Below are positions 4,196-56,237 of a stretch of 64,000 nucleotides of DNA, piece by piece. Within the stretch, counting starts at the first letter, position 1; each line of letters begins with the position of its first letter. A program made the translations under genes and the position numbers. The DNA comes from Enterovibrio gelatinilyticus (GTDB lineage Bacteria; Pseudomonadota; Gammaproteobacteria; Enterobacterales; Vibrionaceae), in NCBI RefSeq assembly GCF_028683095.1, contig NZ_JAJUBC010000028.1:1-64000 (forward strand), read 5' to 3'. Below the pieces are notes generated by a model that worked only from the letters and a program-made list of their open reading frames with translations, was not told the DNA's origin and did not search any database.

Positions 4196-4210
4196 TGGAT
4201 CTCCCTGTCT

Positions 4211-9796: not shown

Positions 9797-9840
9797 TCCC
9801 GCCTCTTAAGAAGCGGGATTCTGCGAGAAGAAATGAAGGG

Positions 9841-11931: not shown

Positions 11932-11949
11932 CTCCTGATTTATATTCCG

Positions 11950-40688: not shown

Positions 40689-41858
40689 CTAAAAATACCA
40701 ACTTACCTCCGCTTCGACAAAGTCATCACGTTTTAGGGAGTAAATTGGATCGGTGGCCTTGTCCGAGTCGAACATCCAACCTGTCACCGTCCAGCTCCAA
40801 TCATTCGAGAAACGACCGCTCGACTCTAAGCGCACTGTCATCGAATCTGTATCGTCTAAATCGACCGTACCCCCGACTAAGAACTCAGTGCCGTCGTGAT
40901 CATTCAGTACCCAGCGAAGTCCTGCAAACAGGTCATTTTGGCCAGCAACGGGGGCATCTTCATCGCGACTGTCGTAAAGATATTCCATCAGAAAACCCAG
41001 ATCGGTGATGCCTTCGTTCACACCTACATAGGTATATTCAAAACCTCCCGTAAACGCCGTATTTGATTCCAAGCTGTAACGACGAATGGCCTCAGCTTTC
41101 CAGAGCCAGTCACCGTAGATCGCTTGAACATCAAGGCCCACTTGCGTCATGAGCGCATAGTATGGCGATAAGGTGTTGAAGAAATATGGGTCTCGGTTAG
41201 TACCATGAAACACACTCAAACCTACGTCCCATTCATCAAACATGGTGCCATAACGCGCAGCAACATCAGGGTAAAACTCTTTATGACGAGATTCGTACTG
41301 TGCATCTGCATCGCCAGCACCAGGAACCGCTAAACGACCATCGTAACTTGCAAAGGTACGTTCGCGAAAATAGGGCAGCACGTATAAATCAAGCAAGCCA
41401 GATTCGAGTTCTAGCCCCAAGCTCATCATGGGTTGACCCAGTTTCACCTCGCCATCAATCGCTTCTACCGCATCAGTTTGATTGATCACATCAACAAGAT
41501 GTTGTGACTCTGTCACGCCCCAAAAGACGATACCGAAGCCAAAGCGCAGTTCGTAGTTATCTTCGTAGTGCATCAACAACGCTTCACGCACATCGCCATG
41601 CGTGCGCTCGTCATCCATTGAGTCCCAACGGAAGAACGGCGAAAAAGTAAAGCTCGTGTTCCCTTCGTCACTTTCCCAATAAAGCTCAGGTTCAATGGCG
41701 ATAGACGTTTGGCTTTTGTCCTGACCTTGAGCGCCAGCCTGTGAAAACTGACGCTGTTGAAAGGTCAGCTCACCTTCAAATTCAAATGCATAAGCGGGTG
41801 AGAGGAAAAGAGGCAGCGCTAACAGCGCCGCCAATGAAGTCCATGGTTTCATTCTCAC
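40689..41858 (-). CDS. Outer-membrane beta-barrel protein (DUF1302-like?), exporter-associated
   Basis: Signal peptide MRMKPWTSLAALLALPLFLSPAYA. Beta-strand periodicity rich in aromatic, Gly and Asp residues. The C-terminus …EVSWYF is an OMP signature. The start abuts the stop of the LolA-like gene. Confidence 0.6.
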   Translation of the reverse strand: MRMKPWTSLAALLALPLFLSPAYAFEFEGELTFQQRQFSQAGAQGQDKSQTSIAIEPELYWESDEGNTSFTFSPFFRWDSMDDERTHGDVREALLMHYEDNYELRFGFGIVFWGVTESQHLVDVINQTDAVEAIDGEVKLGQPMMSLGLELESGLLDLYVLPYFRERTFASYDGRLAVPGAGDADAQYESRHKEFYPDVAARYGTMFDEWDVGLSVFHGTNRDPYFFNTLSPYYALMTQVGLDVQAIYGDWLWKAEAIRRYSLESNTAFTGGFEYTYVGVNEGITDLGFLMEYLYDSRDEDAPVAGQNDLFAGLRWVLNDHDGTEFLVGGTVDLDDTDSMTVRLESSGRFSNDWSWTVTGWMFDSDKATDPIYSLKRDDFVEAEVSWYF

Positions 41859-41860
41859 TC

Positions 41861-42655
41861 CTAGCGCGCGCGCTTCAAGCTAGATTTAGAAAAGTCACCT
41901 TCATCCAAACCCGTGTTAAACGCTAGTTCTGTTGTGGTTAATTTGGTCGACTTACCCGTCTGGTGGTTCACCATCATCATCGTGTGCGCGCGCCAGTACT
42001 GATCCAGATACTGTTTGTAGTCACTGAACGTCAATGTTTTAAGCAAAGACTTACGGCGATCGTAGAACTCAGTTTTAAGCGGTCGGTAATGCTCTTGGTC
42101 AACCCACACTTTTTGGCTGGTATAACCTGAATACTTATCGGTTGGCGTTTGCACAATCACAAACGTATTTTGCCCATCAATTTCTTCTTCACCCACCAAG
42201 TCAAAGGTATATTTCTCGAGTTCAAACGAGCTCAAATCTTCGTACGCAAATTCGCTGCCCATGAATGGGCCTGACTTGTTGCGTGATGCAATACGTTTCA
42301 CGCGCTTTAGCGCAGGAAGGTAAAGCCACTGATCGTCAGCGCCAGTAATATGCGAGTAGTTAAGAAAGACGGTACCACGGACATCACGAGGTTCATCAAA
42401 GATGGTTAAGCCTTTATCGCCATCGCTTTCAACTTCAAGTGTTTTGATACGCAGTTTGCGATCACTGGTATCACCGTTCGCGTTTTCAAGCAGCATGGTC
42501 ATTTCAGCCACACTGTCACCCCAGCCTTGATCCCGCACTTTACGCTCTTTGGCGATTTCCAATCCCTTTACTTCATCGGCAACCACAGGCGCTGCTATCG
42601 CCATCATGCTAAACGCAATCACAACGGCTTTTGATAATGTTCTTATTGTTTTCAT
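41861..42655 (-). CDS. LolA-like outer-membrane lipoprotein-sorting family protein (DUF1329-like), exporter-associated
   Basis: Signal peptide MKTIRTLSKAVVIAFSMMAIAAPVVA with start ATG 42655. The ORF track reaches 42760, overlapping the MMPL gene. It is a ~260-aa periplasmic protein, and this family typically pairs with MMPL/RND exporters. Confidence 0.55.
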   Translation of the reverse strand: MKTIRTLSKAVVIAFSMMAIAAPVVADEVKGLEIAKERKVRDQGWGDSVAEMTMLLENANGDTSDRKLRIKTLEVESDGDKGLTIFDEPRDVRGTVFLNYSHITGADDQWLYLPALKRVKRIASRNKSGPFMGSEFAYEDLSSFELEKYTFDLVGEEEIDGQNTFVIVQTPTDKYSGYTSQKVWVDQEHYRPLKTEFYDRRKSLLKTLTFSDYKQYLDQYWRAHTMMMVNHQTGKSTKLTTTELAFNTGLDEGDFSKSSLKRAR

Positions 42656-42674
42656 TCTTCTCTCCTTGAATTCG

Positions 42675-45038
42675 TTACTGCGTTGCTTCTTTGCTAAACG
42701 ACTTAGATTTATCAGCCAAAGGCTCAGATTTACCGCCCAACGACTTGGATTCATTGGCATAGTTTTTCCTATCTGCTACTAGAAGCACGGCAGGTAGAAG
42801 AATAAAGTCCACGATGAGAGCAATGAATATAACGATGGCACTGAGCAGCCCCATGTCACTATTCAGACGGAAGCCGGATGTTGCTAACACGCTGAAACCA
42901 GCAACTAGCACCACGGTTGTAATCCATAGTGCGCGACCCACTGAATCAAACGCATAACGGATACCATCTTCAACATTGCGACCCTGCAAACGTGCATGGC
43001 GATATTTCGTCAGGAAATGCACCGTGTCATCCACCACCACACCCAAGGTCAAGGTGATAACAACTGAAAGCCCCAGGTTGATTTCACCTGACACAACAGC
43101 CCACAAACCAAAGCCCAAAATGGCTGGCACCAAATTTGGCACTAGACTAATCACACCAAGACGCCATGAACGTAATGCGAATACCAACAACCCAGAAATC
43201 AACACCAATGCAATCGGCAAGGTTTTCAACATACTGGCAATGTTGGTTTCACCAATGTGAGCGAACATCAGGTTCGGACCAGACGATGCCATCTCGTACT
43301 GAGGGGCATTAGCCTTAAACCATGTATCCATACGTTTTTCCAACGCAATCAAATCCACACTGCCTAGGTTGTCAGTGGTTAGTACTAATTTGACCGCAGA
43401 CTTATCAATGTTCACTTCGTTGTTTAGATCTAATCCGTACGGCAACGACATTTCGTACAACAGCAAATATTGCGCAGCAAGTTCAGGATCTTGAGGCAAG
43501 GCGTAGAATGATTCATCATCACCATGCATGTTCATGTTCAAACGTTTGAAAGTGTCGGAGATTGACGCGACATGGTCAGTCTCTGGTTGAGTTCTTAACC
43601 ACTCGGTGAAATCTTCGACTGCATTTAAAAACTCAGGATGCGTAATACCTTGTGGTTGACCCGATTTAATGGAAATACTGAGCGCGGTTGTCCCGCTAAC
43701 CGTTTCTTCCATATAATCAGCCGCTTGACGGAAAACATTGCCAGAATCGAAGTATTCAACGGCATTGTCATTGGCATGGTTTTGCATCAGCAACACCGCA
43801 CTCAATGCCACGACAATGACACTGACTGGCAGAATCTTCCTATGATTTGCAATCACGGTATCCGCTACCCATCCCATCGCTTTGTTACTGTTTTTCCGGG
43901 CAGGCTTCACCTTAAACGGCATCAATTGAAGCAATGCTGGTAATAGCGTGACAGACAAGACAAACGCGATCATCACGCCCAATGCAGCGAGATTCCCCAT
44001 GTCTCTCAATACCGGAGAGTCCGATGCATTCATCATTAAGAAGCCAATCGACGTTGTAACTGACGTGATCAATAGCGCGAGGAAATTAAGCTTAAGCGCA
44101 TAATTAATGGCCTCATTTTTGTCTTTGCCTTCACGAAGAGCATGCACATAGGACGTGATCAGGTGGACACAATCCGCCACGGCGAGAGTCATCACCAACG
44201 TCGGAACTGTCACTGTACCGTTATTCAGGTAGTGTCCTACCCAACCCAGCATCCCCATGGTGGCTGCAATGGTCAGCACAATCACGATCAGCGTCGCCAA
44301 GACAAACTTCCAAGATCGCAACATAATGCCGAGGAACACCAGTACAACAAGAAACATCATTGGTACCAGCGTTTGGCTGTCTGCTTGCGCAGCGTCAGCA
44401 AAAGCTTTATTCATGGCGATAATGCCCGCCAGATGGAAATCTACGTCAGGATAGGTTTCGTGCGCTTTAGCCAGAACATCTTTTGTAAAATTGACCACCT
44501 CCTGCACTTGCGCCGTTTGGTCACCATCCGGCAATTGAAAAGTGATATTCACAATGGCGGCTTGCGCGGTTTGACCGACGATAGCGTTAACTAAACGAGG
44601 TTCATTGAGGGCGACATCACGAATATAGTCGATTCGTGCATCGTCAAGTTCGTAATAATCTGGCGCGAGGTCTTCAACAAGCAAGTCATCCTCTTCCGCA
44701 GAGGTATGTTGATAATTCGTAATGGAGTCCACGCGACTCGCGTATGGTGTTAGCCAAGCTTCATCGGTGAGTTGTTGAATCAAGGAAAGGTTGTCTTTGG
44801 TAAACACGTCTTTGTTATGTGGCGCAACCACAATGGCAAGCGTGTCCGTTTTGTTAAATGTCGCTTCGAGTTCTTTGAACGATTGAAGCTGCGGGTTCCC
44901 TTTATCAAAGAAGATTTGGTAATCACCTCGAAAATACAAGTTTTGACTACCCATCGCCGCAACAACGGCAAACAAAACACTAAAGATCAAAAATAGCCAA
45001 GGACGTGCCGCAGGCATTCGATATAGTTCAGTTTTCAT
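42675..45038 (-). CDS. MMPL/RND-superfamily exporter (12-TM, two large periplasmic loops; HpnN-like)
   Basis: ~787 aa with duplicated 6-TM units and the MMPL architecture. Start ATG 45038 (MKTELYRMP…) with a GGAG SD. The ORF track reaches 45050. Confidence 0.75.
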   Translation of the reverse strand: MKTELYRMPAARPWLFLIFSVLFAVVAAMGSQNLYFRGDYQIFFDKGNPQLQSFKELEATFNKTDTLAIVVAPHNKDVFTKDNLSLIQQLTDEAWLTPYASRVDSITNYQHTSAEEDDLLVEDLAPDYYELDDARIDYIRDVALNEPRLVNAIVGQTAQAAIVNITFQLPDGDQTAQVQEVVNFTKDVLAKAHETYPDVDFHLAGIIAMNKAFADAAQADSQTLVPMMFLVVLVFLGIMLRSWKFVLATLIVIVLTIAATMGMLGWVGHYLNNGTVTVPTLVMTLAVADCVHLITSYVHALREGKDKNEAINYALKLNFLALLITSVTTSIGFLMMNASDSPVLRDMGNLAALGVMIAFVLSVTLLPALLQLMPFKVKPARKNSNKAMGWVADTVIANHRKILPVSVIVVALSAVLLMQNHANDNAVEYFDSGNVFRQAADYMEETVSGTTALSISIKSGQPQGITHPEFLNAVEDFTEWLRTQPETDHVASISDTFKRLNMNMHGDDESFYALPQDPELAAQYLLLYEMSLPYGLDLNNEVNIDKSAVKLVLTTDNLGSVDLIALEKRMDTWFKANAPQYEMASSGPNLMFAHIGETNIASMLKTLPIALVLISGLLVFALRSWRLGVISLVPNLVPAILGFGLWAVVSGEINLGLSVVITLTLGVVVDDTVHFLTKYRHARLQGRNVEDGIRYAFDSVGRALWITTVVLVAGFSVLATSGFRLNSDMGLLSAIVIFIALIVDFILLPAVLLVADRKNYANESKSLGGKSEPLADKSKSFSKEATQ

Positions 45039-45053
45039 CACACACTCCATTTG

Positions 45054-45281
45054 TGACGATTCGTCAAATTCTCTGCTTTAAAAAGCCAACTGATATGGCT
45101 TAGTACTTCCTAAACATAGGGTTATGTCACTCACCCTGTTCAAGCAAAACAAAATTACGCGTTCACATGGTTAGAAATTCAAATCATCGCCAGAAAAAAA
45201 CTGACGTTCCGTCAATTAATGACGAAACGTCAATGTAGTACAAAAAAGTAACAAATTAAAGCTTATTTTGACGAATCGTCA
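45054..45281. promoter_or_regulatory. Four 13-bp palindromes TGACG-N3-CGTCA (candidate TetR operators) between the TetR and MMPL genes
   Basis: The sites are tgacgattcgtca (45054-45066), tgacgttccgtca (45202-45214), tgacgaaacgtca (45220-45232) and tgacgaatcgtca (45269-45281). The first lies 16 bp upstream of the MMPL ATG, just upstream of its SD. Confidence 0.6.
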
Positions 45282-45302
45282 CAAATAAGTCAGTTGTCGC
45301 AA

Positions 45303-46076
45303 TTATGATTGATTTTCTAGAAGGGCAACTTCTTCGCCAAACAGGTCTTTTTCGGCTCGCTCCCATGTTTTTTGGTAGTCAAAATCACAAGACAAAGGCA
45401 TCCAGCGCATCCCATCAAGGAGGAAGTTGAGGTTCTGAAGCACGATATTGGTATCATGTTGACGAGATACACAGCTACTTTGCGTCGCATTATTTACCAA
45501 TGAACTGGTACCAAATGCCATCGCCCAATTTGCAAACACAATGCTATCGCTCGTGATGCCAGGTGCGAGGATGATATCTCCAGAACTCTGGCCAAGCTCG
45601 ATGAACTTATCACCAAATGACACCACAAGGTCTTCCAAAGTGTTCAGTTTTTCAAGGCGTTCAGGGGCGCTTTTTTCAGTGACCGCAGGCGTACGACTAA
45701 CCAATGCACACATCGCTAGGATGGGCGAGAGTTTCGAGAAAAGATGCATACCAGCATGCATGGCAATCAACTTTTCACGGCTTGAACCTTCAAAGTTGAG
45801 TGCGCTTGTGAATAGGGGAATTTTTTTACTCAGCGCTTGGATCGCAAGCGCAGCAAACAAATCTTCCTTGCTGTTGAAGTGATTGTAAATTGTACCTTTG
45901 GAATATGAGCTGGCTGCAGCAAGCTTATCCATATTGAGTTGTGCAAAACCTTCCCTTTCAACAATGCTACATGCTATTAGCAACAACTCATTCTCACGAT
46001 CTCGCATTGCCAATTGTTTGCGGCTCAACGTCGCGTCATCACTGATTAAATTTGATACTGCTTGCTCTAACATTGT
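45303..46076 (-). CDS. TetR/AcrR-family transcriptional regulator
   Basis: N-terminal HTH (…LIACSIVEREGFAQLNMDKLAAASSYSKGTIYNHFNSKEDLF…). Likely start ATG 46076 (MLEQAV…). The ORF track reaches 46142. Confidence 0.8.
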   Translation of the reverse strand, partial: TMLEQAVSNLISDDATLSRKQLAMRDRENELLLIACSIVEREGFAQLNMDKLAAASSYSKGTIYNHFNSKEDLFAALAIQALSKKIPLFTSALNFEGSSREKLIAMHAGMHLFSKLSPILAMCALVSRTPAVTEKSAPERLEKLNTLEDLVVSFGDKFIELGQSSGDIILAPGITSDSIVFANWAMAFGTSSLVNNATQSSCVSRQHDTNIVLQNLNFLLDGMRWMPLSCDFDYQKTWERAEKDLFGEEVALLENQS

Positions 46077-46398
46077 GAATATCCTTAGAAGATCCTTACT
46101 TTTATAGCACAAATAAGAAATAGATTGGCAGCTTGTCCTCACTTTTTGATGCGATCACATCTACCACTCTCGTACTCATTCCATTGAATATTCACGTAAA
46201 TTGAAGTCACTCGCCTAGCGTTGCTCCGCTAGACAACGCCTTTGATTCAGCCAAGAACTCATGACTCATTATGCTTTTTTGTCGAAAATCAGGAACCACA
46301 AAAGAATGTTCAACCGGATGACTCAGTAATGTCATCAAGCCATCTGCCGTACTTTTAACAGATGGACTTATTACAATCACTGAGTATATTTTGATAGG

Positions 46399-47337
46399 TT
46401 ATTGTGCTTTGGCCCAACGAACGATGTCATCTCGCGGCCAAATCATTAGATAGCTTTTAGGCGTGTACTTCCCTTCATCAAACAACCGTCGACGCTTTTT
46501 GTTCTGCAAAGCAACATGCCCTGCATCATCACATGATTCAAGCAGATAAAACGACGCGCCACCAGACTCTGGGAGCGTGCGTAAATAGGCCATTTTCGAT
46601 GATGCTTGTATTACCGAAGGGTCCCAGAACCAGCTTTGTGCAAATATGCCTGAAACGTGTGGTTCTGACTCAAGCCGTTGTGCGATCTCCAGATAAAACG
46701 CCCGCCAGCCCGGTTCAAGGAAGTCTGGATTAGTTCTTCGGTCTTCCATATGAAGTTCATACATGTTTTGTCTGTTGTTCAGCTTTCTCAGCAACATATC
46801 CGCAGCACTAACAAACTGTGCAATGCCATTCGCGGTAAGAAATCGACGCGGTAATGGTCTGGGTTCATAATGGCAAATTGAACGGCTTGGCCACATATTC
46901 AACGCGCTAATGGCTATGTCTTTTCTGAACAGATCGCTGTGAACATCAGGCTCATAGCTGCCCGTCGCAATGTCATCTGCCAAATACTCAAACCACTCTT
47001 TGATAGAGTCAATCACCATTGTCGGCATCGTCACATCATGACTAGCTAGGCCGGTCTGATCGCTTGAATCCAATGAGCGAAGACTCCGCTGCATTAAAGC
47101 CACCAGCGCGAGTTGATGAATATCTGCCTCTACGTCTTTGCTATGAGTGTTCGATAGCTGCTCAAGCCAACGATTCATCTCATCAGGGAAGTGTGAATAG
47201 GCGCGGCCGGGCATTTCATCTTGTACAAAAGACAGATATCGTTCGCGAACCGTTGATAGCGTATCGACTTGCTTATTGAGCCTGCTTTCAATCATCTCGT
47301 GTAGATCATTCAGCTTGGTTTGCAACGTCATACACAC
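46399..47337 (-). CDS. Hypothetical protein (312 aa), last gene of the FkbH/ACP operon
   Basis: No recognisable motif. The start is adjacent to or overlaps the SDR gene stop, and the gene is co-oriented with the upstream biosynthetic genes. Confidence 0.5.
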   Translation of the reverse strand: MCMTLQTKLNDLHEMIESRLNKQVDTLSTVRERYLSFVQDEMPGRAYSHFPDEMNRWLEQLSNTHSKDVEADIHQLALVALMQRSLRSLDSSDQTGLASHDVTMPTMVIDSIKEWFEYLADDIATGSYEPDVHSDLFRKDIAISALNMWPSRSICHYEPRPLPRRFLTANGIAQFVSAADMLLRKLNNRQNMYELHMEDRRTNPDFLEPGWRAFYLEIAQRLESEPHVSGIFAQSWFWDPSVIQASSKMAYLRTLPESGGASFYLLESCDDAGHVALQNKKRRRLFDEGKYTPKSYLMIWPRDDIVRWAKAQ

Positions 47338-48059
47338 TCTCCGCCAGTCACTGGTAGATTAACGCCATTGATGTATTCCGCCCCATCAGAAAGCAAAAAG
47401 ACCACAGATGATGCTACCTCCGTTGAGGTTGCATTGCGCTTCATCGGGTGAGATGCCGCGTTCTGAATCACCATATTGTCGGGAATATCCTGCAAGAATG
47501 GCGTGTCGACCATCGAGGGGGATACCGCATTCACACGAATACCTTTGCTACCAAATTCGGCCGCTAACGAACGCATCAAGCCCAATTGTGCGTATTTGGC
47601 AATGTTGTAGTCAGCCATTGCAGCAGGTGGCAGACCCAAAGTAACACTGCTCAATATGAAGACCACTCGCCCTGCCCCACGTTGCGCCATCGAGGGTAAG
47701 AAAGCTTTCGCAATCATCATACTGCTCATCATTTGCACTTCGAGCTGCTCCATGACTTGATGGCGCGATACTTTTTTAAACCGCGTCAATTTCAGTCTCG
47801 GAGCTTGCGCAAAAACAAGATGATCAGGTTTTGAACATAGTGCCATTGCGTTTGAAATAAATGCCTCGCAACTGTCAGGGTCACTTAAATCAGCGCCAAG
47901 TACATGAAGCTCGTTTTGCATGCTTGATTGCATACTTTCAAGCGCAGCAAGATTATTACACCCATGCGCGATAATACGATTGCCTTCGCTATCGAGCATC
48001 GACATGACCGCTTTGCCAATGTCCGAGCTCGCTCCCACGATTAAACTGGTTTTACTCAT
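47328..48059 (-). CDS. SDR-family oxidoreductase (3-oxoacyl-ACP reductase-like)
   Basis: Rossmann GASSDIGKA (TGxxxGxG-like), catalytic YxxxK region (…NIAKYAQ…) and the NGV…PG tail. Overlaps the dehydratase gene stop by 4 nt. Confidence 0.75.
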   Translation of the reverse strand: MSKTSLIVGASSDIGKAVMSMLDSEGNRIIAHGCNNLAALESMQSSMQNELHVLGADLSDPDSCEAFISNAMALCSKPDHLVFAQAPRLKLTRFKKVSRHQVMEQLEVQMMSSMMIAKAFLPSMAQRGAGRVVFILSSVTLGLPPAAMADYNIAKYAQLGLMRSLAAEFGSKGIRVNAVSPSMVDTPFLQDIPDNMVIQNAASHPMKRNATSTEVASSVVFLLSDGAEYINGVNLPVTGGECV

Positions 48060-48487
48060 GCCGATGACTCGCTTTCATCAATCCCTGAATGTATCCGCGC
48101 TTTCGATACCACTTGCCCGTGTTGATTTCGGATAACTGCTTTGATTTCGATACGTTTTAGAAGGGTGTGAACATCCACCACTTCTCCAACAACGGTGAGC
48201 ACATCACCCACAAAAACGGGGCGACTGAAACGCGTTTGAATATCCTGCAACAATGCATTTTCACCCGGTAAATACACACCGACCAATGTGGAATATAACG
48301 ATGCCGTCATCATGCCGTACACGACGACATCAGGATGCCCTCGCCGTTTTGCATGCTCCGCATTGGTATGAAGCGGGTTAATATCACCACTCACCAAAGT
48401 GAAAGCATTCAGCTTCTCCTCGGTAATATCAGTAGAGAATTGGTGTTTTAAGCCCACATCAATGTCATCAATACCGTATTGCTTCAT
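48056..48487 (-). CDS. MaoC-like (R)-specific enoyl-ACP/CoA hydratase/dehydratase (hotdog fold)
   Basis: …LVSGDINPLHTNAEHAKRRGHPDVVVYGMM… is the MaoC dehydratase signature. 143 aa. Confidence 0.7.
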   Translation of the reverse strand: MKQYGIDDIDVGLKHQFSTDITEEKLNAFTLVSGDINPLHTNAEHAKRRGHPDVVVYGMMTASLYSTLVGVYLPGENALLQDIQTRFSRPVFVGDVLTVVGEVVDVHTLLKRIEIKAVIRNQHGQVVSKARIHSGIDESESSA

Positions 48488-48501
48488 TCATCTGATCCCG
48501 A

Positions 48502-48750
48502 TCATGCTGCTTGAAGTTTTCGAGTGATTAAATCAACCGTATCGCCCACATTACCCGCCTGATTCAACTGTTCAATTTCCGACAAACTAAATTTAATCGC
48601 CAACTCTTTTTCAATAGCATCAATGATTTGTATCTGTGCCAGTGAATCCCAGTCTTCAGCATGGTCTGCCGTCGTATCTCGTGTCACCACTAAATCATCT
48701 TCATCCAGCACATCCGAAATGATCTCAGAAATCGCATTCAATATATCCAT
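48502..48750 (-). CDS. Acyl carrier protein (discrete, pathway-dedicated)
   Basis: 82 aa and acidic, with the phosphopantetheine-attachment context …EDWDSLAQIQII…. Confidence 0.75.
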   Translation of the reverse strand: MDILNAISEIISDVLDEDDLVVTRDTTADHAEDWDSLAQIQIIDAIEKELAIKFSLSEIEQLNQAGNVGDTVDLITRKLQAA

Positions 48751-48832
48751 ACAAGCTCCTTTATCGTGCCGCGTAATGAACCTATTTTGAGGTTGTGTAT
48801 TTGTTCTTTATTTAGCATTCGATCTGACAATT

Positions 48833-50644
48833 TCATTGGCGCATGATCATCAGCGGGAGGTCAGGTTCAGCGTGATGTTCGTCGATGACGTATTCCCACT
48901 GGCTGCTACCCTCTTCGTTCTCAGATAGACACTGAAAGCCAAGTGATGCGTAATGACCACTCACCAAACCGTTCTTCTTACTCGGCACATATTGACCAAC
49001 CAATTTACTGACATTCCGGGCTTTCGCATGGCGAACCAATTCTGAAAACATCGCCATTTCCATCTTTCTTTTGAACACTCGGCAGCTCATTAGCCATAGA
49101 TCAATCGTCAGAGTGTGTTCATGCTCGGTCCCGACAATCACGGACACAATACCATTGTCGCCAAACTTATCTTTCAATCGGCCATACAGCGAAAGGTGTT
49201 GCGGAGAGTGCATGAAAGACGAAATTTCCTGTGCACTATAGCGTTGAGTCGTGAGGTTAAATTGGTTGGTTTTATTGGTGAGCTGCGTAATGCGAGATAA
49301 CGATACATCGTCGAATGGCGCGATCATCGCCATCATGTCTAACGATTTTAGATAATCATCATAGTTTGCAAATTCACGCTGCAATTGCTGGCGTTCTTGA
49401 TTGTGCGCATACATGGCAGCTCGCGAAACATCTTCTGGATTGAGGGATACCAATTCAAATAAGCCCGCTTTGTCCAAAGCCGTGATGTATTGCGTGACAT
49501 CTTGCCCAATGTTGGGCACAGCAACCGATGAAAGATTACTCGCGACCAGCTCACGCTCACTGGCGTTATCATCAAGGAACACAAGGGAGTCGAGACCGAT
49601 ATTAAGTGACTCAGCAATCTGTTCAATATTTTGGTCTTTGTTTTCCCAATTAGCTTTGAATTCGCTGAAGTCAGAGAGCATGAGTATTGAATCAGGGTGC
49701 GAGAACCCTTGTTTCGCGTTCTCAATGTCATTTTTGCTGCAAACCGTTAAAAGTACACCGCGCTGATGAAGTGCCTTCAAGTATTGTTGCAATTCTGTGT
49801 AAGCTTCGGCCTCAGCGCTTTCATGCCCGATTTGGATGCCACTTAAGCCATCATCACCAATCACACCGCCCCACAGCGTATTATCTAAATCACAGACGAT
49901 GGCTTTCTTGCTCAACCCCAGCACTGCGAGAATTTGGTTAGCCACACTGTGCCCCAATTCAGGGAACGCATCGCTACTCATCGCATACTTGTAGGCATAC
50001 CACTGCGTTTTGTTGAACCAACGCTCTAACCCAAACCATGCAGACAAATAGTTAAGGTCATGCAAAATGAAATTTGCACGCTGTTCGGCGTATTCTGCAA
50101 ATTTGGTATTCAATGCATTGGTGAAACGTGTTTTCCCGGCGGTGGCAGACGCATCAATGTTCCCCATAGGACGGGAAAACGGCAGTTCAAAATTGTTCTG
50201 AATAATGGTGGCTTGATACTTACGGTGTAACGCCTGCCAAACGGTATGAAAGTAATCATAGGTATCCGCAACTTTATCACTAACGTCGACGTTATTATCT
50301 GTAGGCGCTGGCCATGTCGTTAGGTTCACACAGGTCGTGTGGAGATAAATAACCTGAGGGTCAAAAGCGTCGAGCGCATCATTGTCAAATACCGATTCTT
50401 GATAGAACTGGTTGTAGTCAGACTGATAGATTTCGACATTCACACCCATGTTCAGCAAAAAAAGTTCAATGTAATTGGCCACTTCACTGGTTGTGGAGCC
50501 GCCCAAGATCGCAACACGTAAAGGCGGCGCAGTCAGCGAGGCTTTCAGGGTTCGGCGCAGTTTCTTTTGACGACGCTGCAGCCACGCCACATCCAAAGGG
50601 TATGCGATCCTTACGTTCGTCGTTTCAGTCATGTTTTTCCTCAA
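48833..50644 (-). CDS. FkbH-like HAD-IIIC family phosphatase/acyl-ACP loader with C-terminal GNAT-like domain
   Basis: HAD motif I (VCDLDNTLWGGVIGDDG), motif II/III (…TVCSKN…, …VFLDDNASE…), and the …QFNLTTQRY… region typical of FkbH-like domains. 603 aa. Confidence 0.65.
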   Translation of the reverse strand: MRKNMTETTNVRIAYPLDVAWLQRRQKKLRRTLKASLTAPPLRVAILGGSTTSEVANYIELFLLNMGVNVEIYQSDYNQFYQESVFDNDALDAFDPQVIYLHTTCVNLTTWPAPTDNNVDVSDKVADTYDYFHTVWQALHRKYQATIIQNNFELPFSRPMGNIDASATAGKTRFTNALNTKFAEYAEQRANFILHDLNYLSAWFGLERWFNKTQWYAYKYAMSSDAFPELGHSVANQILAVLGLSKKAIVCDLDNTLWGGVIGDDGLSGIQIGHESAEAEAYTELQQYLKALHQRGVLLTVCSKNDIENAKQGFSHPDSILMLSDFSEFKANWENKDQNIEQIAESLNIGLDSLVFLDDNASERELVASNLSSVAVPNIGQDVTQYITALDKAGLFELVSLNPEDVSRAAMYAHNQERQQLQREFANYDDYLKSLDMMAMIAPFDDVSLSRITQLTNKTNQFNLTTQRYSAQEISSFMHSPQHLSLYGRLKDKFGDNGIVSVIVGTEHEHTLTIDLWLMSCRVFKRKMEMAMFSELVRHAKARNVSKLVGQYVPSKKNGLVSGHYASLGFQCLSENEEGSSQWEYVIDEHHAEPDLPLMIMRQ

Positions 50645-50664
50645 TCACGAATACTTACCCTCGC

Positions 50665-51696
50665 TTAAGAACGTGTTTTCCCCATTGCCCAACGTAGTGT
50701 GTCCACCACACCTGAAAGGGTGACGATAAACTGATTTAACGAGCGGCTATCCATCACTAAATTGCGCTTCAACTTCAACGGGTGTTCCGTTCTAGCATTC
50801 AACCCTTCATCCAACGTGGTCGCCGTTCTGATGCCAAGAGCGTTCAATTCTGGAAGATGTTCTGGTGACCAAATCCCACTCGGGTAGCAAAAATGCGTCA
50901 GCGCTTTTGGAGAGGCAATCTGCGCAGTTAAGACCTCTCGATTGGTTTCTATTTCGTGATGAATGGCATCGCTATCTGTCGGCAATTTGTGGGTATGTGT
51001 ATGCAGTTGAATGTTGGTCAATGGTGAAGCCATCGCTGTGTTTAACTCGTGATAATTGGCGTTATGAAAGCGCTTTGCTTGTATCGCATCATCGCCTACA
51101 CCTAACGCACTCGCTGTCGCCGACAAAAACGCCGTTTTTTGGTCGTCGTCAAAAGAGACCATTGCAGCTTCTACCAATTTTACTATGTCAGACACACTTC
51201 CTGTGAACCCATAGCGTTGACCTTGAAATTCAACATCAAACGCTTCTGTCGGTTTTTGCCACAACCAATATTGGATTAAGACATTAACTACCGGGATCTG
51301 ATGGTCACAGTAATAAGTCGTCACATATACCGTCGACGGAAACTGATACGCCTGAAAGGTGGGCAAAAGTTCAGTAATACTGGATCGCCAGCCATCATCT
51401 ACCGTGATAACAACGGGGTATTTGAAATGTGCCTCTCCGTTTAAATGGCGTTCCGCGTCATCGAGACTTATCACGTTAAAGTGCGAGCGTTCGAGATAAT
51501 CCAACAACTCATGGAGTTTCTCCTTTGAGATGAAAACACCCGGCCAGAATTGATGCTCATCTTTCAACGCCATCGAATGAAAGCAAAGGATGATTAATTT
51601 ATCTCGATGGAAATATGAAAGGGCTCTGGCAATACCTGTTCGAACAAAAAATGTATATACCGCCTCCCTCATCTTGCGCATTCCGTAGCTCTCCAA
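50665..51696 (-). CDS. Polysaccharide deacetylase (NodB homology domain, CE4) family protein
   Basis: NodB motif 1 VVITVDDGWRS and His motifs (…HTHTHK…). 343 aa. Confidence 0.7.
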   Translation of the reverse strand: MESYGMRKMREAVYTFFVRTGIARALSYFHRDKLIILCFHSMALKDEHQFWPGVFISKEKLHELLDYLERSHFNVISLDDAERHLNGEAHFKYPVVITVDDGWRSSITELLPTFQAYQFPSTVYVTTYYCDHQIPVVNVLIQYWLWQKPTEAFDVEFQGQRYGFTGSVSDIVKLVEAAMVSFDDDQKTAFLSATASALGVGDDAIQAKRFHNANYHELNTAMASPLTNIQLHTHTHKLPTDSDAIHHEIETNREVLTAQIASPKALTHFCYPSGIWSPEHLPELNALGIRTATTLDEGLNARTEHPLKLKRNLVMDSRSLNQFIVTLSGVVDTLRWAMGKTRS

Positions 51697-51961
51697 TAAA
51701 AGTTCACCAACTTAAAACGCGTTTGCGCGAAGTCGAAAATAATGGCCTTACATGCATGAATTAAAGTATAGAAGCGTGTATCAAATTTGGATCAAACAAT
51801 TGAAAAATGAGAGGAAACAGCATGCCCCGTGTATACACACGAGATTCATTACCCAAAGAAAATAAAGAGTGGTAAGACGAAAGCACCACGTATAGAGACA
51901 TCGCAGGTAAAATTCTCTACAATACGCGCCCTCTCGGTGCGGGACGGAATTCCGCGCATAA

Positions 51962-52756
<795 letters not shown>

Positions 52757-53925: not shown

Positions 53926-54687
53926 ATGCTAACTCGCAGCGGATTGCTGATTTTGATTCTCACTGTTCTTTCTGGCTGTAGCCTGACATCTCAAGAGCAG
54001 CATCAGCAGACATTGGACGCCATCAACGATATCGAAACCAATATACAGACCGATTTAACCGCGATAAATCAAAATGCCGTTGCCCAACAAGCGCAAATCG
54101 CAACCCTTGAACAACAGCTTCTTTCGATGTCTGACACACTCAAAGTATTAAGACAGACTCAAGCTCGTACCGAGGCTAACCGCCCCGAGCCTAAAGTGGT
54201 CTACGTTGAGAAAGAAGTACCGGTGCCCGCAACACAAGACAAAACCACATTAGGTGAACAAGAATGGGTTTGGATTGATGCTGCTGGAGAGAACTTCAAA
54301 GCCCGTGTTGATACTGGTGCAACGACCTCGTCTATCAATGCCACAGACATTCAAGACTTTGAGCGTGACGGAAAGACATGGGTACGCTTTAATTTAGCGC
54401 ACGCAAAATCAGAAGATACAACGGAAGCAGATCCTGTAACCATTGAGGCTCAAGTCAAACGTTGGGTGAAAATACGCCAAGCATCGGCAGACGAACTCGA
54501 ACGCCGTCCTGTCGTAGAGTTACGTGTCAGACTGGGAGACCTGCATGAGAAAACACAATTTACGCTTGCTGACCGTTCCCAAATGGAATTTCCGGTACTG
54601 CTAGGTCGAGAGTTTTTTAAAGACATTGCTGTGGTTGATGTCAGTCAATCATATGTTCATCCAAAGTTTGTCGCCGAAAACAAATAG
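53926..54687 (+). CDS. Lipoprotein with C-terminal retropepsin-like aspartyl protease domain ('ATP-dependent zinc protease' family)
   Basis: Lipobox LSGCS, a coiled-coil linker, then …WVWIDAAGENFKARVDTGATTSSINA… carrying the DTGA retropepsin motif. Confidence 0.65.
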   Translation: MLTRSGLLILILTVLSGCSLTSQEQHQQTLDAINDIETNIQTDLTAINQNAVAQQAQIATLEQQLLSMSDTLKVLRQTQARTEANRPEPKVVYVEKEVPVPATQDKTTLGEQEWVWIDAAGENFKARVDTGATTSSINATDIQDFERDGKTWVRFNLAHAKSEDTTEADPVTIEAQVKRWVKIRQASADELERRPVVELRVRLGDLHEKTQFTLADRSQMEFPVLLGREFFKDIAVVDVSQSYVHPKFVAENK

Positions 54688-54727
54688 CCACTGACTTTAC
54701 ATTGTCAGTTAAGCGAAAGAGGAAAAA

Positions 54728-56233
54728 ATGACTTCACGCGCTCCGTTTTACATGCTTATCAGCCTGCTCATTGTTGTTGGTATGGGCATGAGTATGTATC
54801 GTCATGACGTCTACGGTGTGCCGTGGACTGCTGGTCAAAAACACCAAGTGTGGGAAGTTGAGGCCCGCGTTGAATTTGAAGCCAAAGGCGACCCCGTTAA
54901 AGTCTCTTTAGCAACGCCGGACACACAGTCTGGCTTTACGCTTATTAACGAAAACACCAGCTCTCCAGGTTACGGGTTTGCACTGGTTAACACCGAAGAT
55001 GGCCGCCGCGCTGAGTGGACGAAACGCGTAGCCAGTGGCCAACAGATCTTGTACTTCAAAAACCAAATGTTGGTGGATGAAAACGCGAAATTCCCCAATG
55101 AGCCGCCGTTAAGCAACGTTGCCCCTATCGCCCTTGATGGCCCCGTGAAAACGGCGGCAGATGCAATTTTGGCGCAAGCTATCCAACGTTCGGCGGATAA
55201 CAGCACGCTGACCCGCGAAATCATCAAACAGTTCAATGATAACGAAAGCCAAAATGCCGCTCTGCTTACCAAAGAGATGAGCAAGGCTGACGCTATTGTC
55301 GCCATCCTTTCACTCGACAATGTGCATGCTCGCGTCGTTGGCGCACTGCAATTGGAAGATGGACGCCGTCGCCAGAGCATTATCCCTATGGTCGAAACAT
55401 GGGACAACGAACACTGGCAGTTGTTTAACCTCGAAACTGGCGCAAAAGATACATCCCAAGATCTGCTGCTGTGGAATGAGAAAGGCACACCAATGTTAGA
55501 AGTCACTGGAGGTACTAACAGCCAAGTTAGTTTCTCTATCATTTCGCAAGACATTAGCCCCAAACAAGCCACCGACGAGAAGATTCAAGCAGAAAGCCTT
55601 TTAAACTTTTCGATCCATAGCCTGCCTATCGAAGAGCAAGCCATGTTCAAAACCATCATGCTTGTGCCTATTGGCGCACTGATCGTTGTGCTGCTGCGCG
55701 TGTTGGTTGGCCTTAAAACTTCCGGCACCTTCATGCCTGTTTTGATCGCGGTTGCCTTTGTGCAAACACAGCTTGTGCCCGGCATCGTTGGCTTCCTTTT
55801 GATCGTCGGCACAGGTCTGGTTATTCGCAGTTACTTGTCACGGCTGAACTTACTGTTAGTTGCGAGGATATCTGCCGTTATCATCACGGTTATTTTGATT
55901 ATCTCCGTATTTACCGTTGTCGCATTTAAGATTGGATTGGTTGAAGGCCTAAGCATTACCTTCTTCCCTATGATTATCCTTTCTTGGACCATCGAACGTA
56001 TGTCGATTATCTGGGAAGAAGAAGGCCCGAAAGAAGTCTTGGTGCAAGGCGGTGGCTCTCTACTAACAGCCGTTCTGGTTTACCTTGCCATGACCAATGA
56101 TTTCGTACGCCACATCACCTTCAATTTCATTGGGATTCAACTCGTGATTCTGGCGTTAATACTCATGCTAGGTAACTACACGGGTTATCGACTGAGTGAA
56201 TTGAAGCGCTTTAAGCCTCTCGTGAAGGACTAA
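54728..56233 (+). CDS. Inactive transglutaminase-like domain fused to 7TM helices (UUP1-like membrane protein)
   Basis: N-terminal TM, a ~300-aa periplasmic domain, and seven C-terminal TM helices. It sits between the protease and ATP-grasp genes. Confidence 0.6.
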   Translation: MTSRAPFYMLISLLIVVGMGMSMYRHDVYGVPWTAGQKHQVWEVEARVEFEAKGDPVKVSLATPDTQSGFTLINENTSSPGYGFALVNTEDGRRAEWTKRVASGQQILYFKNQMLVDENAKFPNEPPLSNVAPIALDGPVKTAADAILAQAIQRSADNSTLTREIIKQFNDNESQNAALLTKEMSKADAIVAILSLDNVHARVVGALQLEDGRRRQSIIPMVETWDNEHWQLFNLETGAKDTSQDLLLWNEKGTPMLEVTGGTNSQVSFSIISQDISPKQATDEKIQAESLLNFSIHSLPIEEQAMFKTIMLVPIGALIVVLLRVLVGLKTSGTFMPVLIAVAFVQTQLVPGIVGFLLIVGTGLVIRSYLSRLNLLLVARISAVIITVILIISVFTVVAFKIGLVEGLSITFFPMIILSWTIERMSIIWEEEGPKEVLVQGGGSLLTAVLVYLAMTNDFVRHITFNFIGIQLVILALILMLGNYTGYRLSELKRFKPLVKD

Positions 56234-56237
56234 GCGC

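What the first reader, a model, noticed from the sequence alone, without database searches (positions are those of the whole stretch)
46399..51696. Small biosynthetic operon of unknown product: NodB-type deacetylase, FkbH-like HAD-IIIC loader, dedicated ACP, hotdog dehydratase, SDR reductase and a hypothetical protein
FkbH-like enzymes dephosphorylate a glycolytic intermediate and tether a glyceryl unit to a dedicated ACP, as in methoxymalonyl-ACP and tetronate pathways. Here the loader and ACP are accompanied only by a MaoC dehydratase and an SDR reductase, with no KS, AT or oxidase. That points to a short ACP-bound C3 pathway, such as glyceryl, lactyl or acryloyl-type chemistry. The CE4 deacetylase and the unknown 312-aa protein (possibly an acyltransferase) suggest decoration of a polysaccharide or lipid acceptor. 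I am not aware of a characterised equivalent in vibrios.
Basis: partly seen in the sequence, partly recalled or inferred. Interest (0 to 1): 0.65.

Follow-up and report, generated by a model that had tools for sequence, protein, structure and literature searches.

The report
Lactyl-ACP glycan N-acyl swap cassette
A six-gene operon in a marine Enterovibrio probably builds a three-carbon hydroxy-acid (lactyl) on a carrier protein from a glycolytic intermediate and puts it in place of an acetyl group on an amino sugar, using a previously unnamed acyltransferase family that is also common in exopolysaccharide gene clusters.

Summary
Six tightly packed minus-strand genes (46399-51681) encode a CE4 deacetylase, a full-length FkbH enzyme, an ACP, a MaoC hotdog dehydratase, an SDR and a 310-aa protein with no Pfam or NCBIfam family.

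- **Conserved cassette.** The same set recurs in Enterovibrio, Endozoicomonas, Flexibacterium (an alphaproteobacterium) and other marine bacteria, with unrelated flanks.
- **Donor side.** FkbH, ACP, MaoC and SDR belong to the same four Pfam families as the loading module of the FR901464 polyketide synthase. A review reports that this module's dehydratase and ketoreductase convert glyceryl-S-ACP to lactyl-S-ACP.
- **Wider family.** It has about 1,100 representatives, lies in exopolysaccharide loci and is usually next to the same CE4 subfamily.
- **Natural variants.** Two lack MaoC and SDR, which predicts a glyceroyl product.

Best reading: CE4 exposes an amine on an amino sugar and the GNAT-like enzyme re-acylates it with ACP-bound lactyl. 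The acceptor and product are inferred, not shown. I rate it a new variant of known kinds, moderately high interest.

The parts
50665..51681 (-). CE4 (polysaccharide deacetylase family) protein, 338 aa, soluble. Proposed to remove an N-acetyl group and expose the acceptor amine.
   Evidence: PF01522 scores 47.8 bits against a cutoff of 23.1. The N-terminal part resembles PgaB, BpsB and IcaB. An 18-sequence alignment has invariant H35, D95-D96 (TxDD), H227/H231 (HTHxH), P267/G269 (CYPSG) and R306, in the order I recall for PgaB. There is no TM segment. It has a 100-130 aa insertion between the DD and HxxxH motifs.
48833..50632 (-). FkbH-type glyceryl transferase/phosphatase, 599 aa (FkbH_N, HAD-IIIC and a C-terminal Cys domain). 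Proposed to load a glyceryl unit from 1,3-bisphosphoglycerate onto the ACP.
   Evidence: TIGR01686 scores 291.4 bits against 146.65 and covers profile positions 2-320 of 323. PF21211 FkbH_N also matches. D248-x-D250-x-T252, S299-K300-N301, K332, D354-D355 and C517 are at least 97% conserved in 121 homologues, and C517 is 100% conserved. The motifs align with ZmaN and with the FR901464 PKS FkbH domain. PDB 3slr matches the N-terminal two domains.
48502..48750 (-). Dedicated acyl carrier protein, 82 aa.
   Evidence: PF00550 scores 27.7 bits against 20.8. A DWDSL phosphopantetheine-serine motif is present. It is 59-77% identical in the other cassettes.
48056..48487 (-). MaoC-type single-hotdog dehydratase, 143 aa. 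Proposed to dehydrate glyceryl-ACP to (enol)pyruvoyl-ACP.
   Evidence: PF01575 scores 68 bits. The hydratase-2 motif SGDINPLH is present. It is 27% identical (pairwise E 1e-6) to the MaoC domain at the N-terminus of the FR901464 PKS loading module.
47328..48059 (-). Classical SDR, FabG-like, 243 aa. Proposed to reduce the alpha-keto group and give lactyl-ACP.
   Evidence: adh_short_C2 scores 145 bits and adh_short 105 bits. The GASSDIG cofactor motif and Y151-x3-K155 are present. The FR901464 module has the same Pfam family, adh_short, at residues 280-467, but pairwise BLAST to that domain gave no significant match.
46399..47331 (-). 310-aa member of an unnamed family: an N-terminal helical domain plus a C-terminal GNAT-like domain. 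Proposed to be an acyl-ACP-dependent N-acyltransferase that delivers the C3 acyl group to the deacetylated acceptor.
51682..51997 (.). 316-bp intergenic region shared with the divergently transcribed cmoA. Presumed promoter region of the operon (inferred only).
   Evidence: It is the only sizeable non-coding stretch upstream of the first gene. The consensus promoter scan was uninformative.

Best explanation
The operon is a self-contained 'deacetylate, then re-acylate' cassette. All six proteins are soluble and presumably cytoplasmic.

Donor side:
- FkbH takes 1,3-bisphosphoglycerate, forms a glyceryl-S-Cys517 intermediate, dephosphorylates it with its HAD domain, and passes the glyceryl unit to the dedicated ACP.
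- The MaoC hotdog enzyme eliminates the 3-hydroxyl to give enolpyruvoyl/pyruvoyl-ACP.
- The SDR reduces the 2-keto group to give lactyl-ACP.

Acceptor side:
- The CE4 metalloenzyme removes an N-acetyl group from an amino sugar. The likeliest target is a HexNAc residue of a surface-glycan precursor on the cytoplasmic side.
- The 310-aa GNAT-like protein transfers the lactyl group from the ACP onto the freed amine.

The net result is N-acetyl replaced by N-lactyl. In the natural variants that lack MaoC and SDR, the product would be N-glyceroyl.

Shown here: gene content, intact catalytic motifs, the fold of the sixth protein, conservation of the cassette, and genomic association of the CE4/GNAT-like pair with EPS loci.

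Inferred: every chemical step, the amide (rather than ester) linkage, the lactyl stereochemistry, and the identity of the acceptor.
For: 1. The donor module matches a characterised system family for family. The first PKS of the FR901464 producer (Burkholderia sp. FERM BP-3421 plasmid p1) starts MaoC(10-98), adh_short(280-467), FkbH(714-1024), PP-binding(1156-1217), KS. PMC4765723 states that the DH-KR proteins convert glyceryl-S-ACP into lactyl-S-ACP in FR901464 and lankacidin biosynthesis.
2. The window's FkbH, MaoC and SDR keep their catalytic motifs.
3. The sixth protein has a confident helical-plus-GNAT model. Its nearest structure is the acyltransferase Tcp24, and all other structural hits are N-acyl/acetyltransferases, including the nucleotide-sugar GNAT FdhC.
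4. In P0222 the same domain sits directly after a carrier domain (A-KR-T-domain), the position of an off-loading enzyme. L008 has the discrete version: CE4, homologue, 84-aa ORF, AMP-ligase, SDR.
5. The CE4 and the GNAT-like protein form a conserved pair. They are adjacent in L007, L008 and L009. In the metagenome scan, 15 of 24 loci with at least 1.3 kb on both sides have a CE4 within 1.5 kb.
6. Those loci carry Wzy, GT4, AsnB-like, Wzz/Poly_export and exosortase genes, so they are EPS loci.
7. The donor module is swappable. FkbH-ACP alone occurs in Vibrio sp. AND4 and an Acidobacteriota MAG. FkbH-ACP-MaoC-SDR occurs in an O-antigen/CPS-type locus without the pair.
8. The cassette is intact, in the same order and with different flanks, in Endozoicomonas, Flexibacterium, Gammaproteobacterium 45_16_T64, Vibrio sp. 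Of7-15 and L103.
9. None of the six proteins has a predicted TM segment.
Against: - No biochemistry exists for any of these proteins.
- The window's SDR has no significant pairwise similarity to the FR901464 KR domain, so alpha-ketoreduction rests on family-level analogy.
- The similarity to Tcp24 is structural only: 11% identity, no HMM hit to any PDB sequence, and Foldseek E-values all above 0.06.
- In the cassette-bearing genomes no glycosyltransferase or sugar-nucleotide genes flank the cassette. The glycan acceptor is extrapolated from distant relatives (25-30% identity).
- 9 of the 24 well-flanked metagenomic loci show no adjacent CE4 at the sensitivity used.
- CE4 enzymes can also act as esterases, so an O-acyl exchange is not excluded.
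Confidence: 0.5

Rival explanations
1. The donor chemistry is the same, but the acceptor is a small soluble amine or amino sugar. Candidates are glucosamine, a chitin-derived oligosaccharide, an amino acid or a polyamine. The cassette would then make a diffusible N-lactyl compound, analogous in logic to Nod-factor assembly or to N-acyl amino acid and AHL synthases.
Against: The wider family and its CE4 partner lie inside EPS loci. The RND block is absent next to the cassette outside Enterovibrio. LasI and TofI score no better than generic GNATs, and Tcp24, which from memory acts on a glycoside, is clearly the best hit.
Confidence: 0.2
2. The cassette exchanges O-linked rather than N-linked acyl groups. 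CE4 would act as an O-acetyl esterase and the GNAT-like enzyme as an O-acyltransferase on a glycan hydroxyl.
For: From general knowledge, the CE4 family includes acetylxylan esterases. No tool here can distinguish N- from O-specificity.
Against: The closest sequence relatives of the CE4 are de-N-acetylases: PgaB, BpsB, IcaB, and for its homologues NodB and HfsH. All structural neighbours of the sixth protein are N-acyltransferases.
Confidence: 0.08
3. The four donor genes supply a lactyl or glyceryl starter or extender unit to a polyketide or non-ribosomal assembly line encoded elsewhere. This would resemble the methoxymalonyl-ACP, tetronate or FR901464 pathways.
For: All characterised FkbH enzymes cited in the retrieved papers serve PKS/NRPS pathways. 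The FkbH domain aligns with ZmaN and with the FR901464 PKS.
Against: No KS, AT, C domain, FkbI/K-type dehydrogenase, O-methyltransferase or FabH-like gene lies in the operon or its flanks in the cassette-bearing loci examined. The cassette always carries CE4 and the GNAT-like gene instead. Close FkbH relatives (about 50% identity) sit in glycan loci, not PKS clusters.
Confidence: 0.07
4. The sixth protein is not a transferase but a hydrolase, a regulator or a structural partner. The operon would then make a free C3 acid, or modify the ACP-bound unit in some way other than dehydration and reduction, for example via hydroxypyruvoyl or acryloyl.
For: There is no sequence-level link to any characterised enzyme, and Foldseek support is weak.
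Against: The GNAT fold is recovered consistently. Polar residues are conserved across about 1,000 representatives. The domain sits after a carrier in P0222. An elaborate ACP pathway to free lactate would be pointless, since lactate is a primary metabolite.
Confidence: 0.07

Closest known systems
Loading module of the FR901464/spliceostatin trans-AT PKS. Lankacidin is cited alongside it in PMC4765723; from memory, bryostatin BryA (DH-KR-FkbH-ACP) is similar.
   Same: The same four Pfam families are present: MaoC dehydratase, adh_short SDR, FkbH and PP-binding. The FkbH motifs, including the LxSCRV cysteine, are shared. The MaoC domains are homologous (27% identity). The reported chemistry is glyceryl-S-ACP to lactyl-S-ACP (PMC4765723).
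   Different: Here the four activities are separate proteins, in the order FkbH, ACP, MaoC, SDR. The FkbH carries an extra N-terminal FkbH_N domain. No KS follows, so the acyl group is handed to a GNAT-like transferase rather than extended. The SDR is not detectably similar to the PKS KR by BLAST.
Teicoplanin/A40926 glucosamine N-acylation: Orf2*/Dbv21 deacetylase followed by the Orf11*/Dbv8/Tcp24 N-acyltransferase (functions recalled from memory; PDB 4mfj is labelled 'acyltransferase').
   Different: There is no detectable sequence similarity. From memory, the teicoplanin deacetylase is an LmbE-type enzyme rather than CE4, the donor is a long acyl-CoA rather than a C3 acyl-ACP, and the acceptor is a glycopeptide antibiotic.
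Nod-factor assembly, NodB/NodA/NodF (established knowledge).
   Same: A CE4 deacetylase exposes an amine on a GlcNAc residue in the cytoplasm. A dedicated ACP carries the acyl group, and a soluble acyltransferase N-acylates the amine.
   Different: There is no NodC, NodA or NodE. The window CE4 did not match the NodB model; only its distant EPS-locus homologues did, weakly. The acyl group is a C3 hydroxy-acid made from a glycolytic intermediate, not a fatty acid.
Methoxymalonyl/hydroxymalonyl-ACP pathways (FkbGHIJK, ZmaN) and tetronate pathways.
   Same: An FkbH-type enzyme with a dedicated ACP uses 1,3-bisphosphoglycerate (PMC3679948). ZmaN aligns with the window protein across the HAD and Cys domains.
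   Different: There is no FkbK or FkbI dehydrogenase, no O-methyltransferase and no FabH-like condensing enzyme. ZmaN lacks the FkbH_N domain.
FkbH-ACP modules in glycan loci. Examples are C. jejuni cj1302 in the flagellin glycosylation locus (PMC7099621) and the FkbH-ACP-MBOAT sets in Chlorobium, S. meliloti pSymB, Rhodobacteraceae SC52 and L104.
   Same: FkbH and a small ACP act as the presumed acyl donor for glycan decoration. The FkbH proteins are 33-51% identical to the window protein.
   Different: Those systems hand over to a membrane MBOAT (Dlt/AlgI-like, acting outside the cytoplasm) or to unknown enzymes. This cassette uses a soluble CE4 and GNAT-like pair. As far as my searches show, none of them is biochemically characterised.

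Membership tests
FkbH-type glyceryl transferase/phosphatase (TIGR01686) | Full-length FkbH domain scoring above the curated cutoff | tested here: met
   291.4 bits against a cutoff of 146.65, covering profile positions 2-320 of 323.
FkbH-type glyceryl transferase/phosphatase (TIGR01686) | HAD catalytic motifs (DxDxT, S/T, K, DD) | tested here: met
   D248-L-D250-N-T252, S299-K300-N301, K332 and D354-D355 are all at least 97% conserved in 121 homologues. They align with ZmaN and the FR901464 FkbH domain.
FkbH-type glyceryl transferase/phosphatase (TIGR01686) | Conserved cysteine of the C-terminal acyl-transfer domain. Its role as the site of the glyceryl-S-enzyme intermediate is recalled from the OzmB literature. 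| tested here: met
   C517 in W-x-M-S-C-R-V is 100% conserved and aligns with LMSCRV of ZmaN and LLSCRV of the FR901464 PKS.
FkbH-type glyceryl transferase/phosphatase (TIGR01686) | Uses 1,3-bisphosphoglycerate and loads a glyceryl unit on its ACP | not testable with these tools
   Needs an in vitro loading assay with mass spectrometry of the ACP.
MaoC-SDR-FkbH-ACP lactyl-ACP module (FR901464 type) | All four domain families present together | tested here: met
   Window: PF01575, PF00106/PF13561, TIGR01686 and PF00550. FR901464 PKS N-terminus: PF01575, PF00106, FkbH match and PF00550.
MaoC-SDR-FkbH-ACP lactyl-ACP module (FR901464 type) | Dehydratase homologous to the module's DH, with the hydratase-2 Asp and His | tested here: met
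   27% identity over 82 residues, E 1e-6. SGDINPLH aligns with SRDCNPLH.
MaoC-SDR-FkbH-ACP lactyl-ACP module (FR901464 type) | Reductase homologous to the module's KR | tested here: inconclusive
   Same Pfam family (adh_short) but no significant pairwise BLAST alignment. The Y-x3-K motif is present.
MaoC-SDR-FkbH-ACP lactyl-ACP module (FR901464 type) | Part of a PKS, followed by a ketosynthase | tested here: not met
   No KS or AT lies in the operon or its flanks, here or in the related cassettes.
Methoxymalonyl-ACP pathway (FkbG-K) | FkbK-type 3-hydroxyacyl-CoA dehydrogenase, FkbI-type acyl-CoA dehydrogenase and FkbG O-methyltransferase | tested here: not met
   None of these families is found among the operon proteins or their neighbours.
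CE4 metal-dependent deacetylases | PF01522 above cutoff, with Asp-Asp, His-x3-His and catalytic His motifs | tested here: met
   47.8 bits against 23.1. H35, D95, D96, H227 and H231 are invariant in 18 subfamily members.
CE4 metal-dependent deacetylases | De-N-acetylase activity on a defined substrate | not testable with these tools
   Only weak partial matches to PgaB, far below the equivalog cutoff of 321.9 bits. HfsH and NodB matched only the distant EPS-locus homologues, also far below their cutoffs of 400 and 240 bits.
Tcp24/Orf11*-type two-domain N-acyltransferases | Helical N-domain plus GNAT C-domain fold | tested here: met
Tcp24/Orf11*-type two-domain N-acyltransferases | Sequence-level homology | tested here: not met
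   The profile of 23 sequences hits nothing meaningful in the PDB. Identity in the structural alignment is 11%.
Nod-factor NodA/NodB/NodC/NodF system | NodA acyltransferase and NodC chitin-oligosaccharide synthase | tested here: not met
   No NodA, NodB or NodC NCBIfam match for any operon protein. Only distant CE4 homologues show weak NodB similarity.
Known LPS-core or lipid A modification loci (arn, alm, ept) | Match to the curated models for those enzymes | tested here: not met
   No such NCBIfam family appears among the hits at E up to 0.001. The full-text search for FkbH with lipopolysaccharide returned one paper, an unrelated lipopeptide review, and the search with O-antigen returned none.

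The most novel reading that the evidence does not exclude
The cassette is a portable glycan-editing or signal-making unit of marine host-associated bacteria such as Enterovibrio, Endozoicomonas and the coral-associated Flexibacterium. It would take a common N-acetylated amino sugar that the cell already has, for example a chitin-derived oligosaccharide, a peptidoglycan precursor or an LPS precursor, and replace its acetyl group with lactyl. That would create a new surface epitope or a Nod-factor-like diffusible signal used in host interaction. The CE4 and GNAT-like pair would define a general, previously unrecognised 'N-acyl swap' enzyme system across roughly a thousand EPS loci.
Probability: 0.12. 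Interest if true: 0.85.

Novelty: new variant of a known kind. Interest (0 to 1): 0.6.

Why it matters
**A function for an unnamed family.** The GNAT-like protein belongs to a family with no Pfam or NCBIfam model and about 1,100 representative clusters. The results here give it a testable function. They also do so for its conserved CE4 partner in environmental exopolysaccharide loci.

**A second role for known chemistry.** FkbH/MaoC/SDR lactyl-ACP chemistry is so far described only as a polyketide starter-unit route. Here it exists as free-standing enzymes, apparently recruited to decorate amino sugars. In my searches FkbH-type loaders were characterised only in PKS/NRPS pathways, so this would tie them to glycan modification.

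**A built-in experiment.** The natural variants with and without MaoC and SDR predict N-lactyl and N-glyceroyl products respectively.

**Ecological relevance.** Such acyl substituents shape antigenicity, phage and host recognition, and polymer properties. That matters for marine symbionts and pathogens.

Tried and rejected
- **Genome scan with the broad alignment.** I used A1 for genomes and a 13-sequence motif-selected subset, A3, for metagenomes.
- **Fold libraries.** The afdb50 library was not available.
- **CE4 structure.** The single-sequence model was unusable (pLDDT 36.8), so no fold search was run on it.
- **PDB sequence search for the 310-aa family.** A profile search found only de novo helical bundles, which is noise.
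- **Foldseek against the PDB.** It gave only weak GNAT hits, all with E above 0.06.
- **Plasmids.** tblastn of the 310-aa protein found nothing.
- **Literature.** Searches for FkbH with lactyl, O-antigen, HAD-IIIC plus polysaccharide, and lipopolysaccharide returned nothing relevant. The teicoplanin Orf11* structural paper was not in the library, so the Tcp24 function is cited from memory.
- **Promoter and terminator scan.** It found fewer promoter-like sites than the shuffles and no terminator after the last gene. Only a 7-bp inverted repeat, CCATCTG...CAGATGG, lies near 46340-46365.
- **TetR-RND-LolA-like block as part of the system.** Rejected. It accompanies the cassette only in Enterovibrio, where the whole region is syntenic.
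- **Methoxymalonyl, tetronate, Nod-factor and lipid A modification memberships.** Rejected because their defining genes are absent.

Full report
**What is there**

The region 46399-51696 holds six minus-strand ORFs. Reading the sequence gives ATG starts at 51681, 50632, 48750, 48487, 48059 and 47331. Intergenic gaps are 32, 82, 14, -4 and -4 nt, the last two being ATGA overlaps. GC content is 41-48% against 46.4% for the window.

- CE4: PF01522, 47.8 bits against a cutoff of 23.1.
- FkbH: TIGR01686, 291.4 bits against 146.65, plus FkbH_N.
- ACP: PF00550, with a DWDSL serine.
- MaoC dehydratase: 68 bits.
- Classical SDR: 145 bits.
- A 310-aa protein with no Pfam or NCBIfam match.

None of the six has a hydrophobic segment compatible with a membrane helix. 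The flanks are housekeeping genes: cmoA/cmoB upstream on the other strand, and yecE and aspS further downstream. Between the cassette and yecE lies a separate TetR, HAE3/MMPL-type RND, LolA-like, 389-aa block. The 310-aa protein and the FkbH protein are 99% identical to Enterovibrio makurazakiensis proteins.

**It is a conserved, portable cassette**

A word-indexed search of 5.8 billion proteins with the 310-aa protein found only 24 clusters. Their genomic contexts show CE4, FkbH, ACP, MaoC, SDR and the 310-aa gene in the same order, with unrelated flanking genes, in:
- Endozoicomonas montiporae,
- the alphaproteobacterium Flexibacterium corallicola, where a transposase gene lies just downstream,
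- Gammaproteobacteria bacterium 45_16_T64.

A scan of one genome per species added three Enterovibrio genomes with the cassette at the same cmoBA/TetR-RND site. It also added Vibrio sp. Of7-15 and two informative variants:
- Vibrio sp. AND4 has CE4, FkbH, ACP and the 310-aa gene, with a 17-nt gap where MaoC and SDR would be. It sits among housekeeping genes.
- An Acidobacteriota MAG has FkbH, ACP, CE4 and the 310-aa gene.

A further full cassette turned up via the FkbH search (L103). The RND block accompanies the cassette only in Enterovibrio, so I do not count it as part of the system. Between Enterovibrio species the cassette proteins diverge faster (69-85% for CE4, FkbH, SDR and the unknown) than the flanking genes (90-97%).

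**Donor side**

The FkbH protein has thousands of relatives at about 50% identity. In 121 of them the HAD motifs and one cysteine, C517 in WxMSCRV, are essentially invariant. I fetched two characterised systems from the plasmid collection:
- the zwittermicin plasmid pBMB400, whose 359-aa HAD-IIIC protein I take to be ZmaN,
- plasmid p1 of Burkholderia sp. FERM BP-3421, the FR901464 producer.

Both align with the window protein through the DxDxT, SKN, K, DD, TNQ(F/L)N and L(M/L)SCRV motifs.

The N-terminus of the FR901464 PKS has this Pfam architecture: MaoC_dehydratas (10-98), adh_short (280-467), the FkbH match (714-1024), PP-binding (1156-1217), then KS. These are the same four families that the window encodes as separate proteins. 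The two MaoC domains align at 27% identity (E 1e-6), including the hydratase-2 motif.

[quoted passage not shown] 2014 (PMC4765723). That 1,3-bisphosphoglycerate is the source of glyceryl-ACP in FkbH pathways is summarised in PMC3679948. I therefore infer this route: 1,3-bisphosphoglycerate to glyceryl-ACP, then pyruvoyl-ACP, then lactyl-ACP. One caveat is that the window's SDR shows no significant pairwise similarity to the PKS reductase.

**The sixth protein**

A 23-sequence alignment gave an AlphaFold model with mean pLDDT 89.7. It has a helical N-terminal domain (to about residue 142) and an alpha/beta C-terminal domain.

- Foldseek returns only GNATs, and weakly.
- There is no sequence-level match to any solved structure.

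From memory, Tcp24/Orf11*/Dbv8 N-acylates the glucosamine of teicoplanin-type glycopeptides after a deacetylase has removed the acetyl group. That is the same logic as proposed here.

An exhaustive profile search shows the family is much larger than the word-indexed search suggested: 1,089 representatives at E up to 1e-3, mostly stand-alone proteins of about 300 aa. One representative, P0222, is AMP-binding, KR, PP-binding and then this domain at the extreme C-terminus. That is where an off-loading enzyme acting on a carrier-bound acyl group would sit. A-KR-T modules are known to load alpha-keto acids and reduce them to alpha-hydroxy acids, with pyruvate giving lactate in ClyF (PMC7923214). 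I did not test the specificity of the P0222 adenylation domain.

**Acceptor side**

Contexts of distant family members (25-33% identity) are exopolysaccharide loci. They carry Wzy, GT4 glycosyltransferases, AsnB-like amidotransferases, Wzz/Poly_export, and exosortase EpsH/EpsI.

In three of the four contexts a 339-353-aa CE4 sits next to the gene. One, L008, reads CE4, homologue, 84-aa ORF, AMP-ligase, SDR, a discrete counterpart of the P0222 fusion. These CE4 proteins align end to end with the window CE4 (22-34% identity). They share invariant H35, D95-D96, H227, H231, P267, G269 and R306, in an order that, as I recall it, matches PgaB, with the putative catalytic His upstream of the Asp-Asp pair. 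Sequence searches likewise place PgaB, BpsB and IcaB nearest to the window CE4. Its EPS-locus homologues also show weak HfsH and NodB similarity.

A metagenome scan returned 80 loci. Of the 24 with at least 1.3 kb on both sides of the gene, 15 have such a CE4 within 1.5 kb. The CE4/GNAT-like pair is therefore the conserved core, and the acyl-supply module varies:
- FkbH-ACP,
- FkbH-ACP-MaoC-SDR,
- AMP-ligase with ACP and KR,
- none nearby.

Conversely, the FkbH-ACP-MaoC-SDR foursome occurs without the pair inside an O-antigen/CPS-type locus. FkbH-ACP also occurs with an MBOAT in Chlorobium, S. meliloti pSymB, a Rhodobacteraceae plasmid and a PEP-CTERM EPS region. C. jejuni has an FkbH-domain gene, cj1302, in its flagellin glycosylation locus (PMC7099621). 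FkbH-type loaders therefore appear to be widely used as acyl donors for glycans.

**Mechanism and its limits**

Taken together, the best-supported model has two halves. The CE4 removes an N-acetyl group from an amino sugar on the cytoplasmic side. The GNAT-like enzyme then transfers ACP-bound lactyl to the freed amine, or glyceroyl in the AND4-type variants. The logic parallels teicoplanin Orf2*/Orf11*, NodB/NodA/NodF and LpxC/LpxD, all from established knowledge.

Several things are not shown: any enzymatic step, the amide linkage, the stereochemistry, and above all the acceptor. In the cassette-bearing genomes no glycan genes are adjacent. There is only an Acyl_transf_3 gene upstream in Endozoicomonas and an OpgC-like gene 2 kb away in Flexibacterium. 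A soluble small-molecule product therefore remains a real alternative.

**Novelty**

Ten full-text searches found no characterised FkbH system in glycan biosynthesis and nothing on this cassette. The pieces are known kinds: FkbH loading, MaoC/SDR conversion to lactyl-ACP, CE4 deacetylation and GNAT acyl transfer. Three things are new:
- their free-standing combination,
- the unnamed GNAT-like family,
- its conserved pairing with a CE4 subfamily.

I classify it as a new variant of a known kind, with interest 0.6.

Noticed in passing
window 3134-12564 (minus strand): A run of genes that looks like a defence or stress island. It holds TelA (353 aa) and a PLD-like nuclease (234 aa) with weak DrmC, MkoC and DpdK matches in PADLOC. 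It also holds a 1626-aa DUF3686, DUF7902 and AAA_5 ATPase, and 696-aa and 204-aa proteins with no family. AT skew drops to -0.26 at 10-11 kb.
   Followed up: partly
window 40689-46072 (minus strand): A TetR regulator, an HAE3/MMPL-type RND transporter (791 aa, HpnN-like partial matches), a LolA_like protein (299 aa) and a 389-aa secreted protein with no family. The block is syntenic with the cassette in the window and three further Enterovibrio genomes and absent next to it elsewhere. Its substrate is unknown.
   Followed up: partly
window 53926-57218 (plus strand): A triad of a putative ATP-dependent Zn protease, an inactive transglutaminase fused to 7TM helices, and a 'sugar-transfer associated' ATP-grasp enzyme. 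A class I/II aminotransferase and GGDEF and EAL proteins follow.
   Followed up: no
L014 (Vibrio sp. AND4) 6719-10972; L017 (Acidobacteriota MAG) 6991-10807: Natural cassette variants that lack the MaoC and SDR genes: CE4-FkbH-ACP-GNAT-like and FkbH-ACP-CE4-GNAT-like. They predict a glyceroyl instead of a lactyl product.
   Followed up: partly
P0222 (1707 aa), P0262 (696 aa), P0145 (620 aa): Fusions of the unnamed GNAT-like domain: A-KR-T followed by the domain; the domain followed by a FemAB-like Acetyltransf_6; and a tandem duplication.
   Followed up: partly
L005 4069-8594; L099 4646-9680; L100 7059-11912; L104 8001-12883: A recurrent FkbH, ACP, MBOAT and DltD/DUF1574-like arrangement in Chlorobium, S. 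meliloti pSymB, a Rhodobacteraceae plasmid and a PEP-CTERM EPS region. It suggests a Dlt-like route that exports a C3 acyl group to an extracytoplasmic polymer.
   Followed up: no
L011-L013 compared with window 46399-51681: Between Enterovibrio species the cassette proteins are markedly more diverged than the flanking genes: 69-74% for the GNAT-like protein against 92-97% for cmoA/B and aspS. In strain FF-33 the pattern is mosaic, with the GNAT-like protein at 97% and FkbH at 89%. This hints at diversifying selection or recombination.
   Followed up: no
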